From the NCBI GenBank assembly GCA_001001485.1, contig LCKO01000001.1, positions 76,517-140,516 of the forward strand: 64,000 nt of DNA, read 5' to 3'. Position numbers: made by a program. Shown piece by piece: positions 30,001 through 36,000 of the stretch. How positions within the stretch are numbered: position 1 is the stretch's first letter; every line of letters begins with the position of its first letter. The DNA comes from Candidatus Collierbacteria bacterium GW2011_GWB2_45_17. GTDB taxonomy: Bacteria > Patescibacteriota > Microgenomatia > UBA1400 > MFAQ01.

Positions 30001-33000
30001 AATAAATATAGAAAATAATCAATCGTTATTTTGAGATGTAGCGGGATTTGGCCTATTGGCCAGAGTGAGTGCTACGCAGATACACTATTATTCACGATCT
30101 TGATCAAAAATATGATCAATATCACTCCATCGATTTGCTTTTCCTGTTTTAAAAAAGCTTTTTGGATTCTCTTGTATATATCTAATCTCATCGTCCTGCA
30201 GCTCTAGTCCACACATTGGACACTTCATATACCTATATGGAAATTGTAGGGTTCCGTCTGGATTCCAGTCATAATCGATACCAATAATCAACCACAACGT
30301 ATCATTCTTACATGACGGACACTGACAATCTTCTATAAATGCATCTACATCATCAGGACCAAGCACGACATTTGTCTTTGAGAACTCTTTGATTTGCCCA
30401 GGAGTAAGTCTTTCATATTTGTCCTCAAAAAAAGTTATCTTTTTCATTAAATTTCCTTCAAATAGGTCTATCATGCTTTTGGTGACCTTCTCGAGTCTTT
30501 TCCAGAGAGATACATCAAGTGAAACAATCTTTGGTGAGGCAATGTGTACAGGTCTTTGGGCTAATGGTTCTAAAAACGAATACATAAACGGAAAAATATC
30601 CTTCGCCAGCAACAGATTAATATCGTCTAAATTGATATTTATCTCGTGATGTACAACTTCATTCCGCAGTTTAGATAATTCTAATAGTTTATCCATAATT
30701 GCAGATAAATCTACAAATTGGTTCAATCTTTTTAAGATAATTACAAAATTGGCTGTTCTCAACTCTTGTTTATTATTTTTTGTTCTATTAGTTGTTTTTC
30801 CCTCTAGTGAAAAAATTTTGATAACTTGTATACCTTCGTCATCAATTCGTTCCAAAATTAAAGCAGGGCAGATTCCCTTTAAGTATTCCTTAAATATTAA
30901 TTCAATAGAAATTTGAGTTTTGATCAAACAACTAACTATTCTTCGAGCATCGTTCCCAGATTCTAAAAATTCTTTTAAGCCTTCCTCTAGCAAATCAACA
31001 GAATCATACCCATATGATGTGTGAGTTTCGTCTCCGAACCTAGTTTTTTTGTGTCGATATACGCCTCCCATTAAAGTAATATAACATCCCCGGTCGCTTG
31101 AAGTACGGAGTAAATAAAATCCACTTATTCAGCGACTTTTCTAGATTTCTTCACTCATATCAAGAATATCAACGGGCAAGTCATCCTCAACTCCTTCATC
31201 AAGCATTTTTATTGCTTTCCAAAACTCATCAGGAATTTCGAGACTCCCTATCTTTGTTGTACCTTCTGGAACTGTAACTAATTTAGCAAGACTGAATCCT
31301 GGTTGTTCACACTCAACTATTTCTCCTGGTTTGTCATTTTCTTTCAGAACGTAGAGACACATTAATTCTCCCTGGTGAACTTGCAGGGAAAAACTAACTT
31401 CCTCAATCAAAGAATCATATTTATATACTGCTAGACCATCGGGGGTAATGTGGAACAATAAAAATTTTCCTTGTTGGATGTTTTCGTCAAAAACATGATC
31501 TGTCTCTACATATTGAACGGGTGTTCTGTGTCCTGGCATTACTTCAACTAAGGCCCCATCAACTATTTCATCAGAGACATCTTCATATTTCCAAGTTTTG
31601 AATCTAACTCCTTTAATTTCTTCCAAAACCGTCCACTCACTCGCAACTATTGGTCCAGAAAATTCCTCATTGGCAATAATGCCTCCATTTGGACTCTCAA
31701 AATCAATTCCGTGTTCTTTGGTTGTCATGGCACAAATTATACTTCAATTGGGATACTCAACAACAATTTGGGAATAATTGTTCTATATCCGATAATATAT
31801 TTATATTAAATTTTTGCGTTTTCTGTCGCTTTTTGAAAGATAAACAGATTATTGTGGAATGGGAAAAGCCCTTCGCATCGCTCCGCGCGTGGGCGGGCGC
31901 GCGGGCGACCTCCCCGAATGTGGGCGAGATTTCCCAGAGTGTTGGCGGTTTACGAAAAATGTCGAACTTCATTTGATTAGCTCGGCCTTCGGCCTCGCTT
32001 GCTCCGGCGCGGCGCCCCCACCCGCCGCGCCTCCGCTATTTTTTGAGCGCGCGATTTTCTCGCCCTTCGGGCGAGCGAGGAAGAAATTTTTAGTTTTCCT
32101 TGCCCCGTCCGCCCACGCGCGGAAATAATTTTAGCTCCCACAATAATATCAGAATTAAATTACAAATTTAATTCGAATTCATAATTTCTGATACCTTGTT
32201 ATTTTCTTCTATTAAAAAGATCCTAGTAAAATTATGATTAATTCCATTAATAGCTGTTTTAAAGATATTAGCGTCAGCCAAAGGATAATTGTTTATAACA
32301 CCTAGCCATTTTTCACCATTATTGCTATTTATTTCTTTGAGCTTTGACTCTTTTTCTTTAATTATTTTGTCTAGTATTAATTGCGTTTGCTCTTGAATGA
32401 CAATAATGGGGTTTTTGTCTGTTATTGCTCCTATAATTGCTTTACGCCTGTTGTCACCATGACTAATTTCATGAACTTCAACGATTTCTCCATAAATTTT
32501 CAAGTTTCTATTTCCAGGTGGCTTATTTTTTCTTATTAACTTATCCAAAGTTCTCACGAGACCTTTTTTGAATTTATTGAAATTTTTTACAGGCACTTTG
32601 AAAACCAACATTATAGATTTTCCTTTAGGAACCAGATTTTTGTATTTATTATCTAGTTGATTGCAAAATTTAATAAGGGTTTCCGTAGAAGTTCTTTTCT
32701 TGCTTTTCTCGTTTTCATCTTTATAAATAGATTCTGCCGTGGTAATTTCTAATGGGGTTTTATTACCACTACTATCGACACAATAGTAATCTGGAGGATC
32801 TCCACCCGGTACTATTTCAAAAGGTGGATATGAGATTGATTCAAGATAAACCTTTATCGACTTTTTCGCGTATTCTTCATCAACTCGCATCATAAATAAT
32901 GATTCGTCCTTAAACTGAAGACATTGTGTATAAAAATCATAATCATAAGTAGTTTATCATATAGAAGTATATCTGTTTGCACTATCACAATCCCCATTGA

Positions 33001-36000
33001 GTTTTTTATGATAAAGATTTACAATTGGAGTAGCTTATGAAGACAATAATTATCTGGCTTTTTGGTTTGGGTTTTCTTTTAGGCCTTCTTATTACATTAC
33101 TTTTAAGAATGTGGTTGATCGTACCAATTTATTTGATACTGACTTTAGTAACTATTCCTCCTCTACATAATTTTTTATCAAAACGAGTTAATTTAAAACT
33201 AAATAGAGTGAGTCGTTTAATTTTAATTTTTTTACTTGTTCCATTGTCTATGCTAATCGCCACTCTTTACGGATTCGTTGATGGAACAACTACACTTAAA
33301 AAAACAGCTCAATTTTTTGCTGATGACGGTTCCTCTTTATATATGTATCCCAGCTTATACTGGCCCACTGATAAAGGCGGTTATGATGACGCTTCTAAAA
33401 ATCCAGCTATTGCAAGTGACAAGATGATATTTAATGTGTTTGATTTAAGAGAAGGATATAATGCTGGATTCGGAACGATAATGGCTCCTTTTAAGCCAAA
33501 CTTGAGACATGAAATTGAAAAAATATTGAAATATAAACCAAGTAAAATATTCAATTATTCGGATATCGTTGTATTCAATAAAGAAGTACAAAAAGACGAT
33601 AAGAGAGTTTTCATCCAACGAGTCATTGCTAAAGGTGGTGATAAAGTTCGTTTTGAAAATGGATATGTATATGTTAACGGAAAAAAGATTGATGAACCAT
33701 ATTTAGCAAAAGACCAATCAACCTATGCAGGTATTTTTTACAATCAAGAAAAGTTTATCAAAAATTGTGAGGAAATAATCGTACCTGCAAATCAATTGTT
33801 TGTTCTAGGTGACAATAGGATGCTTTCCGATGGTGATAGTAGAAATTTTGGCACAATTTCAGAAGATGAAATACTTGGATATTTACCAAAGGATTATCAA
33901 ACAACATTTTCAAAATATTGGTTAAAGAATAATCAAATGAAGGTTGTAAGTGATGGGGATAGTAACGAATTATTAACTTATTTTAATCAAATAAGGCAAA
34001 AAAAAGGAATGTCTAACTTAACCACATCAAATGATTTAAACATAATAATAAAAAATTATCTTAAAAGTGCTATTGAAAATAATGACTTCTCTAATATCCC
34101 AAAAAAATTAGCCACTCAAAAGGCATTACAGGAAATTATAAACAGAAATCCAATAGGAGTGACAATAATAGAAGGGGTGTATGATCTGGATACTTATAAG
34201 GGATATTTATATTTGGTTGCAGGCGACGCGAATTCCCAAGAGGCACAGAAAAATAGTTCAAAATTTGCTTTTTCAAGCTTTAGGACAGAAATCGATGGTT
34301 GTATGAAGTCTGGAACAATTATTGCTACTTTTAAATGAAACTTTGTGACACCTAATTAAATAGCTGACTGATTTAGTTCTTCAACTAACTTTTGCGATTT
34401 CTCCATTAGTCGTTTTTCGTTATAATCTGGGGATATATTCAAAGATGCTCCTAATACTACCAAAGAAAACAGTAAGGTATTAAATAATCTTTTGAGTCCC
34501 ATTTTAAGTATGTCATCAGAATATAATTGCGGGCCCATAATAAGCTCGTGGTTATTTTGGGAAGTACGAATATTATTTTTTGTGATATCGTAAATTACAT
34601 TCGGATTATTGTGTAAAAAACGAGAAGACTCTTTGAATAAATTTAGAAAAACGATTTTGTGCCATTTGACTTGTTTTGCCTTTTGTTTGTCAGAAATAAA
34701 AACTTTTCCATCCTCTTCAACTCGTTTTAACATAGCCTCAATTTTATGATTTCTGAAAAAATTTCGGTAGTTCGTAGTGCGATATTCAATTTCTGTATCT
34801 GGAAATTCCTTAAAATAAGCAGAAAGTATAACTGCCTCCGCCACTACTCTTATCATGATTTCTGATGATCGGATATATCCGGAACTCAACAAATAAAAGG
34901 CGTTATCCATCAATGGTAAGGTTTGAGAGAGTAGAATTAGCAATGTCCAATTAGGATATTCGTTATCCTTTACTTTTCCTGATGTTGCCTGTAGAAATGA
35001 AGTGTAAACTTCAAGTAATTGATTAAACAAAATTTCTTCGTTTTGAAACTTTGTTTTGAATGCAGATAAAATAGTTTTTTCTTCTTTATCAAAAATTCCC
35101 ATATCTTATTTTATCATTTTTGTTCGCTTGTAGTTTTATTTGAAAAAGTTTATATTAAATTCGGAACCAGTAGTTTACAGATTGTCTTTTTTAATGGCGC
35201 ACTCGTCAGCAAGGAGACAGTCTAAGCTGGTTCCAACGGTGCGCCATTTAAAATTTTTGCGTTTTTTTAGTCGCTTTCAGTGACTTTTACGAGCCGACAG
35301 TTTCGGAGGCGCGGCGGGTGGGGGCGCCGCGCCGGAGCAAGCGAGGCCGAAGGCCGAGCTAATCAAATGAAGTTCGACATTTTTCGTAAACCGCCAGCCA
35401 GTAAAGAGAAGAAAGAGATTGGGAGGTAGCGCTTTCCGCGCCCGCCTCCGCGGAAAGCGCGTCAAATCCGCCTTTTTTGAAACTTGCGGACAGGCGCCGA
35501 AAAAAGAAGGAAGAAAAAACGCAAAAATTGGGCTTCTTGAAAGAAGCCCTGCTCACTATCGTTCGCTTAAAGAACTTTTAGGAGATAAGATATAAAACGA
35601 CATGATTAAATACATCGCCTATTGCAGGAAATCTACAGACGAACCAGACAGACAAATTTTGTCTATTGAGGCGCAAGTTGCCGAACTTGAGGAATTCGCC
35701 GCAAAGGAGAATTTAAAAATAGTTTCTTTCATTACTGAGAGTAAAACTGCCAAAGAGCCGGGAAGACAGAAATTTGCGGAGGTTTTGGAAAAGATTGAAA
35801 ACGGCGGAGCCGCCGGTATCATCTCGTGGCATCCAGACAGACTTGCAAGAAATTCTGTTGATGGCGGAAAGATTATCTATTTATTGGATACAGGAAAATT
35901 GCTTGATTTAAAATTTCCGTCTTTTTGGTTTGAAAATACACCGCAAGGCAAGTTTATGTTAGGAATGGCCTTTAATCAGTCTAAGTATTATGTGGATAAT

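What the first reader, a model, noticed from the sequence alone, without database searches (positions are those of the whole stretch)
31944..35395. Perfect 92-bp inverted repeats flanking a 3.3-kb three-gene segment beside the serine recombinase: a candidate invertible or recently rearranged module
Positions 31944-32035 are the exact reverse complement of 35304-35395. Such perfect identity implies a recent event or active maintenance. The segment encodes two unknown proteins (32168-32893 and 34356-35102, both minus strand) and an SPase-I-like protein with a long C-terminal extension. The repeats contain part of the att/pseudo-tRNA sequence that the adjacent serine recombinase presumably recognises, and serine recombinases catalyse inversion between inverted sites. 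A 12-bp-stem GC hairpin (35429-35460) lies between repeat B and the recombinase start.
Basis: seen in the sequence. Interest (0 to 1): 0.65.

Follow-up and report, generated by a model that had tools for sequence, protein, structure and literature searches.

The report
Recombinase attachment-site arms bracketing cargo genes
The perfect inverted repeat is real: its two arms are copies of the attachment site of a serine-recombinase mobile element inserted at a tRNA-Gln gene, a layout shared by many related elements in groundwater ultra-small bacteria, and in this strain the bracketed genes were found in one orientation only.

Summary
The repeat is confirmed: 31943-32035 is the exact reverse complement of 35304-35396 (93 nt). 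It is present in at least 9 independent assemblies of the same strain.

It is not a one-off duplication. Each arm is the element-side half (P') of the attachment site of a family of large-serine-recombinase (LSR) elements. These insert at the 3' end of tRNA-Gln in Microgenomates/Patescibacteria.

- **Arm A** is the left junction of the LSR-bearing element E3. E3 is the last of three tandem modules at tRNA-Gln.
- **Arm B** is part of a 278-nt unit (35252-35529). This unit is a complete, inverted attP-like copy: an LSR 3'-end remnant (P*) plus the arm. It ends about 70 nt upstream of the LSR start codon.

This inverted unit occurs in every LSR-bearing relative examined, down to 52-65% protein identity. 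Cargo differs between elements. Arm pairs within one element share private variants, which indicates concerted evolution.

Two related elements appear in contigs with both joinings expected from cargo inversion, but short-read mis-joins are not excluded. In the window's own strain, every long contig whose sequence I examined has the window's orientation.

Verdict: a conserved att-site architecture that permits inversion. Inversion here is unproven, and the window copy is a chimera.

The parts
31943..32035 (+). Arm A: the P' half of the att site. The predicted crossover TG is at 31943-31944. It is followed by a tRNA-acceptor/T-arm-like half-site and then two GC hairpins.
35304..35396 (-). Arm B: an identical inverted copy of the P' arm. 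The predicted crossover TG is at 35396-35395 on the minus strand.
32036..32167 (+). Conserved left-end region next to arm A (the 'a-type' inner flank, CTATTTTTTG.GCGCGCG plus a hairpin). It is shared by elements with unrelated cargo. It is homologous, in reverse orientation, to part of the LSR 3' coding region.
32168..32893 (-). Cargo gene 1, 241 aa, function unknown. The only hit is a sub-threshold DUF6175 match.
33037..34338 (+). Cargo gene 2: a signal peptidase I homologue with an N-terminal membrane region and a C-terminal extension of about 150 aa.
34356..35102 (-). Cargo gene 3, 248 aa, function unknown. The only hit is a sub-threshold DUF5677 match.
35252..35529 (-). Inverted attP-like unit, read here on the minus strand. 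It consists of a T-tract (AATTTTTGCGTTTTTT), then P*, then arm B, then the 'S' motif (AAACTGTCGGCTCG), and ends in the inverted T-tract. The unit is bounded by a 16-nt perfect inverted repeat.
   Evidence: (I15)
35397..35500 (-). P*: a remnant of the last roughly 105 nt of a family-type LSR gene (the P half of attP). It contains the 12-bp hairpin at 35429-35460.
35530..35549 (-). Hairpin followed by a T-tract. On the minus strand it looks like an intrinsic terminator. It lies between the LSR promoter region and P*.
35602..37158 (+). Large serine recombinase gene. The family-conserved part ends near 37065. The reading frame runs on through the att site into the antisense strand of tRNA-Gln. The protein is chimeric: aa 1-440 are clade-2 type and aa 441-518 are type-1.
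36984..37097 (+). P1: the P half of the right junction (attR). It lies inside the LSR 3' end. The predicted crossover TG follows at 37098-37099.
37096..37169 (-). tRNA-Gln (CTG), the integration target. Its acceptor/T-arm end is the B' half-site.
31809..31942 (+). Right end of the neighbouring LSR-less module E2. It consists of the T-tract motif plus a P1 remnant. The stretch 31829-31909 is identical to 36984-37064. Joined to arm A, it forms a direct attP-like tandem junction.
   Evidence: (D1)
27355..27407 (+). Junction between modules E1 and E2: a P1 remnant followed by a diverged type-1 arm.
   Evidence: (D3)
23672..23724 (+). Left-most junction of the island: a P1 remnant followed by a diverged type-1 arm.
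   Evidence: (D3)

Best explanation
**What it is.** The 3.3-kb segment is the cargo compartment of an integrative element, E3, spanning about 31943-37097. E3 is built around a large serine recombinase (LSR) and sits at the 3' end of tRNA-Gln. It is the last module of a three-module tandem array running from about 23.7 to 37.1 kb.

**The three sites.** E3 carries three copies of the LSR crossover site.
- **O1** is the left junction. Here the right end of module E2 (P1) is joined to arm A.
- **O2** is an internal, inverted, complete attP-like site. P*, a copy of an LSR gene's last ~105 nt, is joined to arm B.
- **O3** is the right junction. The LSR's own 3' end is joined to the tRNA.

The 93-nt repeat exists because O1 and O2 carry the same P' arm in opposite orientation.

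**What is shown.**
- The site anatomy.
- Its conservation across a large family.
- Variable cargo between the arms.
- Homogenisation of the two arms within each element.

**What is inferred.** O1 and O3 are direct, so they should support excision and integration. O2 is inverted relative to both. Recombination there, by the LSR at the shared TG core or by homologous exchange within the arms, would flip the cargo (O1xO2) or the recombinase gene (O2xO3) rather than delete them. In this strain the cargo appears fixed in one orientation. The copy is a hybrid, so it may be partly disabled.
For: **The arm belongs to a widespread family.**
- The 39-nt arm start occurs exactly in 50 metagenome stretches. 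The 25-mer occurs in 15 species genomes, nearly all Microgenomates.
- Fifteen of these are inward-facing pairs 1.2-3.8 kb apart.

**The anatomy is consistent.**
- The outer flank of host-side arms is variable and breaks exactly at TGGCGG.
- LSR-side arms are always preceded by P*. P* aligns with the 3' end of the family's LSR genes. That 3' end in turn abuts TGxGG of tRNA-Gln.
- The LSRs beside the arms are 83-93% identical to the window's. The cargo differs in each element.

**The repeats are maintained.**
- Arm pairs show 0-3 differences within an element in 12 of 16 cases, and share private variants. The median between elements is 18 differences.
- P* and the element's own LSR 3' end share private indels.

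**The layout is old.**
- All six relatives at 52-65% identity have an 80-112-nt, 94-100% inverted repeat around the LSR gene next to a tRNA.
- Two of them also have a 91-114-nt arm repeat around cargo.

**There are signs of exchange at the sites.**
- LSR-less derivatives have P* joined to tRNA-Gln (L020 versus L022).
- The same cargo at 99.9% identity is joined both ways to P*-LSR (L043/L048).
- The same host flank at 100% identity is joined to either inner end (L032/L058).
Against: - Every long contig of this strain whose sequence I compared with the window shows one orientation. For each of two cargo genes, 24 contigs were read. The places listed are collinear with the window. The rest were reported only as similar places and I did not see their sequence.
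- Among related elements, the same inner end faces the LSR in about 15 of 16. Free flipping is therefore unlikely.
- Both apparent inversions rest on short-read contigs that cross a repeat of about 100 nt. They could be mis-joins.
- An LSR gene in the flipped state, with its 3' end joined to the arm, was not seen in the close clade.
- Characterised serine integrases recombine only attP with attB, or attL with attR when a directionality factor is present (abstracts of PMC2475636 and PMC5737554, listed). O1xO2 would be attL- or attP-type with attP-type.
- In the window, the left halves of O1 and O3 (type 1) differ from that of O2 (type 2). The LSR is a chimera, so its activity on these sites is uncertain.
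- The crossover dinucleotide (TG) is inferred only from being the sole dinucleotide shared by all junctions.
Confidence: 0.55

Rival explanations
1. The internal inverted attP-like unit is a recombinase-binding control or spare site. It could be an operator for autoregulation beside the LSR promoter, or a second attP that allows integration in either sense. The cargo repeat would then be a passive consequence. The arms stay identical through gene conversion, and inversion has no role.
For: - The unit ends about 70 nt upstream of the LSR start in every member.
- L075, L076, L089 and L091 have the P*/P repeat around the LSR but no second arm around cargo.
- Orientation is nearly invariant.
Against: - Ninety-three nt of perfect identity, far beyond a roughly 25-nt half-site, is more than binding requires.
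- Homogenisation of repeats this short normally also produces crossovers.
- The L043/L048 and L032/L058 joinings point to exchange.
Confidence: 0.25
2. This is a natural cassette-exchange platform. Cargo bracketed by two inverted att arms is swapped as a unit between elements by double recombination. The engineered analogue is recombinase-mediated cassette exchange with inverted attP sites. This would explain one LSR backbone carrying many different cargos.
For: - Backbones are 83-93% identical while the cargo between the arms is unrelated.
- Private arm variants travel with particular cargos.
- Isolated arm-cargo-arm contigs exist (L043).
- An identical P*|arm-cargo block of 1700 nt occurs in two different contexts (L011/L030).
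Against: - No donor form was observed.
- LSR-less modules are arm...P units in direct arrays, not arm...arm units.
- Arm-to-arm exchange is non-canonical for serine integrases.
Confidence: 0.12
3. Arm-cargo-arm is a non-autonomous transposon whose terminal inverted repeats are the arms. It happens to lie beside the recombinase.
For: - Inward-facing pairs of arms enclose variable cargo in many genomes.
Against: - There is no target-site duplication at the arm ends.
- One arm is always fused to P* next to an LSR.
- The arm's outer edge is the att junction with tRNA-type sequence.
- LSR-less modules end in P, not in a second arm.
Confidence: 0.05
4. The repeat is an assembly artefact or a very recent accidental duplication unique to this genome.
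For: - Identity is perfect.
- Some contigs break at the arms.
Against: - The structure is identical in at least 9 assemblies made with different assemblers.
- The same architecture occurs in dozens of other genomes.
Confidence: 0.02

Closest known systems
Serine-integrase integrative elements and prophages (phiC31, Bxb1, A118 type)
   Same: - The recombinase has the Resolvase, Recombinase and zinc-ribbon domains.
- The att sites are short and have dyad-like half-sites.
- Integration occurs at one specific locus, here the 3' end of a tRNA, and leaves the target gene intact.
- The TCGAAC motif lies 5 nt further from the core in the arm than in the tRNA. This resembles the attP/attB half-site spacing difference described for the A118-type integrase. 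That comparison rests on memory (Rutherford et al. 2013) and was not checked here.
   Different: - The att site overlaps the last roughly 35 codons of the recombinase gene.
- The element keeps a second, complete, inverted attP-like copy. As a result both the cargo and the recombinase gene are bracketed by near-perfect repeats of about 100 nt.
- The elements form tandem arrays with recombinase-less modules.
- No directionality factor was identified.
SCC composite islands in staphylococci (CcrAB/CcrC)
   Same: - A large serine recombinase is involved.
- Insertion is at the 3' end of one conserved gene.
- Tandem arrays mix recombinase-bearing and recombinase-less (pseudo-SCC) modules separated by att-type junctions (abstract of 10.1101/336396, listed).
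   Different: - The LSR scores far below the Ccr family cut-offs: 92 bits against 900.
- The target is a tRNA, not rlmH.
- An internal inverted att copy is not a feature I know of in SCC. This rests on my own knowledge.
Hin/Gin/Cin/Pin invertible segments
   Same: - A serine recombinase gene lies immediately beside a kilobase-scale segment bracketed by inverted copies of its site.
   Different: - Those recombinases are small (about 190 aa) with a C-terminal helix-turn-helix. Their sites are about 26 bp, and they use an enhancer inside the recombinase gene.
- Here the recombinase is a 518-aa LSR and the arms are 93 nt.
- The sites double as integration sites, and no orientation polymorphism was seen in this strain.
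Integrons
   Same: - A site-specific recombinase sits beside an array of promoter-poor cassettes of unrelated function. Each cassette ends in a recombination site.
   Different: - Integrons use a tyrosine recombinase (IntI) with folded single-stranded attC sites and an attI site.
- Here the enzyme is a serine recombinase, the junctions are double-stranded att-type, and the array is anchored at a tRNA.

Membership tests
Large serine recombinase (serine integrase) family | N-terminal resolvase catalytic domain, followed by a recombinase domain and a zinc-ribbon domain | tested here: met
   PF00239 (E 4e-21), PF07508 (E 6e-15) and PF13408 (E 2e-11) match in that order. The N-terminus reads AYCRKSTDE, which fits the Y-x-R-x-S-T catalytic motif; that is read directly from the sequence.
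Large serine recombinase (serine integrase) family | Catalyses attP x attB recombination with a 2-nt staggered crossover | not testable with these tools
   The evidence is comparative only. TG is the sole dinucleotide shared by all junction types.
tRNA-targeting integrative element | The element lies at the 3' end of a tRNA gene, which remains intact, and has recognisable left and right junctions | tested here: met
   tRNA-Gln is intact at 37096-37169. The same P|tRNA-Gln junction occurs in L020, L022, L024, L029, L060, L061 and L064. Host-side flanks break at the arm edge.
tRNA-targeting integrative element | Empty target site or excised circular form observed | not tested
   No empty tRNA-Gln site or circle junction from this strain was retrieved.
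Hin/Gin-type DNA invertase system | Small serine recombinase of about 190 aa with a C-terminal helix-turn-helix | tested here: not met
   The protein is 518 aa with the LSR domain set. The Mpi invertase model matches only residues 5-84, at E 0.003 and 17 bits against a cut-off of 272.
Hin/Gin-type DNA invertase system | Both orientations of the segment coexist in a population | tested here: not met
   Every long contig of this strain whose sequence I compared with the window is collinear with it. Reads themselves could not be examined.
SCC / Ccr cassette chromosome elements | The recombinase is a CcrA, CcrB or CcrC equivalog | tested here: not met
   CcrB scores 92.5 bits against a cut-off of 900. 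CcrA scores 77.6 against 700. CcrC scores 61.2 against 900.
Integron | IntI tyrosine recombinase with attI and attC sites | tested here: not met
   The only recombinase in the island is of the serine type. The junctions are P|arm units, not attC hairpins.
Structured RNA gene (arm as an RNA) | A match to a known family, or a fold much more stable than shuffled sequence | tested here: not met
   No Rfam match with E of 1 or below falls in the arms. Fold z-scores range from -1.0 to -0.1.

The most novel reading that the evidence does not exclude
The family has a double-invertible design. The recombinase keeps an inverted copy of its own attP, so both its gene and the adjacent cargo are bracketed by inverted sites. 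The sites could be used to flip the recombinase gene relative to the strongly transcribed tRNA-Gln, acting as an on/off switch for its own expression. They could also be used to flip or exchange cargo cassettes. That would be a serine-recombinase counterpart of an integron or shufflon, and a natural form of cassette exchange, in ultra-small bacteria.
Probability: 0.2. Interest if true: 0.8.

Novelty: new variant of a known kind. Interest (0 to 1): 0.6.

Why it matters
**For mobile-element biology.** Serine integrases are regarded as simple, strictly directional attP x attB enzymes. This family has thousands of homologues (7926 with E of 1e-40 or below). Every LSR-bearing member I examined keeps an inverted second attP. 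It also maintains near-perfect repeats of about 100 nt around both the recombinase gene and the cargo. That points to reactions beyond integration and excision: inversion, attP x attR array building, or cassette exchange.

**For Patescibacteria.** Mobile elements in this group are little described; two of my three literature searches on the topic found no relevant paper. These arrays at tRNA-Gln appear to be a main route for acquiring accessory genes. Examples here are extra copies of signal peptidase, peptide deformylase, an rRNA methyltransferase and nucleases.

**For genome engineering.** Well-defined natural att sites, with many sequence variants and matching recombinases, are directly useful.

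Tried and rejected
**Rejected explanations**
- **Pseudo-tRNA gene in the arm.** ARAGORN and Rfam find only the true tRNA-Gln. The arm shares only TG..CGG and TCGAAC with the tRNA end, at a different spacing.
- **Structured RNA or guide RNA in the arms or P*.** There is no Rfam hit and the fold z-scores are insignificant.
- **Divergent promoter in the LSR upstream region driving the cargo through arm B.** A terminator-like hairpin plus T-tract points that way on the minus strand.
- **Defence-system cargo.** PADLOC gives nothing for the three cargo proteins. The only hits are weak HEPN/Csm6-like matches for the 327-aa protein of the neighbouring module.
- **Phage origin.** The arm has no match in IMG/VR.

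**Left unresolved**
- **Crossover at the base before TG.** This base co-varies between the left and right junctions in L020 and the window. It differs between the junctions of L012.
- **Deriving the layout from a simple tandem.** I tried inversion between the 13-16-nt repeats (AAAAGTTCTTTAA and AATTTTTGCGTTTTTT). This is formally possible but untestable here.

**Searches that led nowhere**
- A search for a flipped LSR gene, with its 3' end reading into the arm, among homologue C-termini. No close-clade tail carries the predicted arm-encoded ending; two (P0020, P0034) have non-tRNA tails of uncertain origin. More distant relatives (P0039, P0025, P0028 and others) do have arm-like tails.
- Two of the three literature searches found no description of this family. 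The third returned only general serine-integrase papers.

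
Full report
**1. Observation**

Positions 31943-32035 and 35304-35396 are perfectly reverse-complementary over 93 nt. Identity ends abruptly on both sides. Nothing comparable occurs elsewhere in the window.

A tRNA-Gln(CTG) gene lies at 37096-37169 on the minus strand. The recombinase reading frame runs into it.

- An 81-nt perfect direct repeat, 31829-31909 = 36984-37064. This is the 3' end of the recombinase gene copied just left of arm A.
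- A short motif, AATTTTTGCGTTTT, at 31809(+), 35252(+) and 35516(-).

**2. The repeat is real**

The recombinase and the three cargo proteins occur, with identical sequence, on contigs from many assemblies. These include MEGAHIT k141 and k127 assemblies, JGI assemblies and two NCBI MAGs. All contigs whose sequence I compared are 99.8-100% identical to the window across the region and carry the same repeats.

**3. The arm is a family feature**

The first 39 nt of the arm occur exactly in 50 stretches of JGI metagenome contigs. Ten of these are inward-facing inverted pairs 1.3-3.8 kb apart. The first 25 nt occur in 15 species-representative genomes, and 5 of these are pairs. Nearly all are Microgenomates: Shapiro-, Roizman-, Ames-, Levy-, Woese- and Curtissbacteria. 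IMG/VR has none.

Lining up all copies reveals two kinds of arm:
- **Host-side arms.** The outer flank is variable and breaks exactly at TGGCGG. The inner flank is conserved (CTATTTTTTGCGCGCG...).
- **Recombinase-side arms.** The outer flank is conserved (...GCGCGGAAAGCGCTACCTCCC...CTTACTGGC). The inner flank is AAACTGTCGGCTCGAA.

A large-serine-recombinase (LSR) gene 83-93% identical to the window's lies about 200 nt beyond the second kind of arm. The genes between the arms differ in every element.

**4. What the arms are**

In related elements, the last roughly 105 nt of the LSR gene have the same sequence as the conserved outer flank. That sequence runs directly into TGxGG, which is the 3' end of a minus-strand tRNA-Gln.

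This gives three assignments:
- The right junction of the element is P|B'. P is the LSR 3' end and B' is the tRNA acceptor/T-arm.
- The arm is the P' half of the att site.
- 'Outer flank plus arm' is a complete attP-like unit (P*|P').

In the window this unit spans 35252-35529. It lies inverted, and it ends about 70 nt upstream of the LSR start codon.

TG is the only dinucleotide common to all junction types. I take it as the likely crossover: 31943-31944, 35396-35395 on the minus strand, and 37098-37099.

The TCGAAC motif lies 5 nt further from TG in the arm than in the tRNA. This recalls the attP/attB half-site spacing reported for A118-type integrases. That comparison rests on memory and was not checked here.

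**5. Architecture catalogue**

- **(I) Full elements:** host|arm, cargo, inverted arm|P*, LSR, P|tRNA-Gln. The window and about 16 other elements have this form.
- **(II) LSR-less modules:** host|arm, cargo, P|tRNA-Gln.
- **(III) A diverged lineage:** arm, LSR, P, with no internal inverted unit.
- **(IV) Direct tandem junctions:** P|arm.

The window itself holds a tandem array. P1-remnant|arm junctions at 23672, 27355 and 31898 divide a lower-GC island into modules E1, E2 and E3. E3 is the LSR-bearing module. Arm A is therefore joined to the right end of E2, not to host DNA.

**6. Evidence for maintenance**

Within one element, the two arms differ by 0-3 nt in 12 of 16 pairs and share private substitutions and indels. 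Arms from different elements differ by a median of 18 positions.

P* and the element's own LSR 3' end likewise share private indels, as in L024, L013 and L022. In the canonical element the LSR gene too is therefore bracketed by a near-perfect inverted repeat.

Six relatives at only 52-65% LSR identity all show this P*/P repeat:
- The repeat is 80-112 nt long and 94-100% identical.
- The targets are tRNA-Gln, tRNA-Glu and tRNA-Pro.
- Two of the six, L077 and L088, also have a 91-114-nt arm repeat around cargo.

The layout is thus old and actively homogenised. It is not a recent accident.

**7. Evidence on inversion**

*For exchange at the sites:*
- L020-type LSR-less modules carry P*, preceded by the reverse complement of the LSR upstream region, joined to tRNA-Gln. 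L022, with the same 593-aa cargo gene, would produce this arrangement if its LSR segment flipped between O2 and O3 and the LSR were then lost.
- L043 and L048 share 3818 nt of arm-cargo-arm at 99.92% identity. P*-LSR is joined to opposite ends in the two contigs. In L043 only 9 nt of flank are visible.
- L032 and L058 share 1.9 kb of host flank plus 106 nt of arm at 100% identity. They then continue into the two alternative inner ends.

*Against:*
- Both of the last two cases rest on short-read contigs crossing a repeat of about 100 nt.
- The same inner end faces the LSR in about 15 of 16 elements.
- No close-clade LSR gene was found in the flipped state.
- In the window's strain, every long contig whose sequence I compared has the window's orientation. 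For each of two cargo genes 24 contigs were read. The places listed are collinear. The rest were reported only as similar places.
- Characterised serine integrases act only on attP x attB, or on attL x attR with a directionality factor (abstracts of PMC2475636 and PMC5737554, listed).

**8. The window copy is a hybrid**

The LSR is 90-100% identical to clade-2 proteins over residues 1-440. Over residues 441-518 it is about 93% identical to a different clade (type 1).

Its right junction and the E2 remnant beside arm A carry type-1 P sequence. The internal P* is type 2. Whether this recombinase still acts on O1 and O3 is unknown.

**9. Other readings examined**

I rejected or left unsupported five other readings:
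- A pseudo-tRNA gene in the arm.
- A structured RNA in the arm or P*.
- A promoter reading from the LSR region into the cargo.
- Defence-gene cargo.
- A transposon with terminal inverted repeats.

**10. Comparison and verdict**

The recombinase is a bona fide large serine recombinase. It is not a member of the Ccr, XisF or Hin/Mpi families by their curated cut-offs.

The system works like a serine-integrase element that builds SCC-like tandem islands at a tRNA. It adds one conserved feature I could not find described: an inverted second attP. This places both the cargo and the recombinase gene between inverted sites.

The att-site reading is right. The 'recent event' reading is wrong. The inversion hypothesis remains plausible for the family but is unsupported for this strain.

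Noticed in passing
window 35602-37158: The recombinase is a chimera. Residues 1-440 are 90-100% identical to one clade. Residues 441-518 are about 93% identical to another clade that is otherwise only 15-88% identical across 40-residue windows. The switch lies near 36920, in a GCGCGC-rich stretch that also occurs, inverted, beside arm A.
   Followed up: partly
window 23672-31942: Two recombinase-less modules lie left of the finding. They carry extra copies of housekeeping-type genes: isochorismatase, an RrnaAD-family rRNA methyltransferase, a CBS protein, peptide deformylase, a SAM methyltransferase, an SNase nuclease and a HEPN-like protein with weak Csm6/PDC-S64 matches. A 298-nt direct repeat (24422-24719 and 28847-29144, 84%) links the two modules.
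   Followed up: partly
L085 (GCA_001001055.1 LCIM01000001.1), equivalent to window 37055-37152: This assembly of the same strain lacks 98 nt covering the end of the recombinase gene and most of tRNA-Gln. It could be a real deletion or an assembly collapse.
   Followed up: no
window 27487, 31956, 35391, 37085: Contigs from independent assemblies start or end within about 15 nt of three predicted crossover sites, and about 90 nt from a fourth. The contigs are L002, L009/L082/L086, L003 and L008/L087. This may reflect population variation at the sites or only repeat-induced breaks.
   Followed up: no
P0017, P0026, P0027, P0029, P0038: Some recombinase homologues are 865-904 aa, nearly twice the usual length. 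They may be fusions or carry large extra domains.
   Followed up: no
window 36962-36990 and 35287-35303; L018: The 14-17-nt motif AAACTGTCGGCTCG(AAC) occurs twice: inside the recombinase 3' coding region, and directly after recombinase-side arms. It resembles the arm's own AAAAATGTCGAACTTC segment. L018 is an 'empty' element consisting only of arm, this motif and P next to tRNA-Gln. The motif could be an accessory binding site.
   Followed up: partly
L011 vs L030: An identical 1700-nt block (P*, arm and a two-gene cargo) is preceded by another cassette in L011 and by the inverted recombinase gene in L030. The break lies exactly at the 5' edge of P*.
   Followed up: partly
window 26463, 27803, 30047, 58772; 1094, 15414, 27681; 12321/12387; 20138-20596: The window holds other repeat families: a 39-nt double-hairpin intergenic element in 4 copies, a 42-nt element in 3 copies, a perfect 34-nt direct repeat 66 nt apart, and coding repeats with a 159-nt period.
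   Followed up: no
L088 1-8611: A relative targeting tRNA-Pro has three recombinase genes in tandem. The upstream one ends directly in an arm, so multi-recombinase arrays exist.
   Followed up: partly
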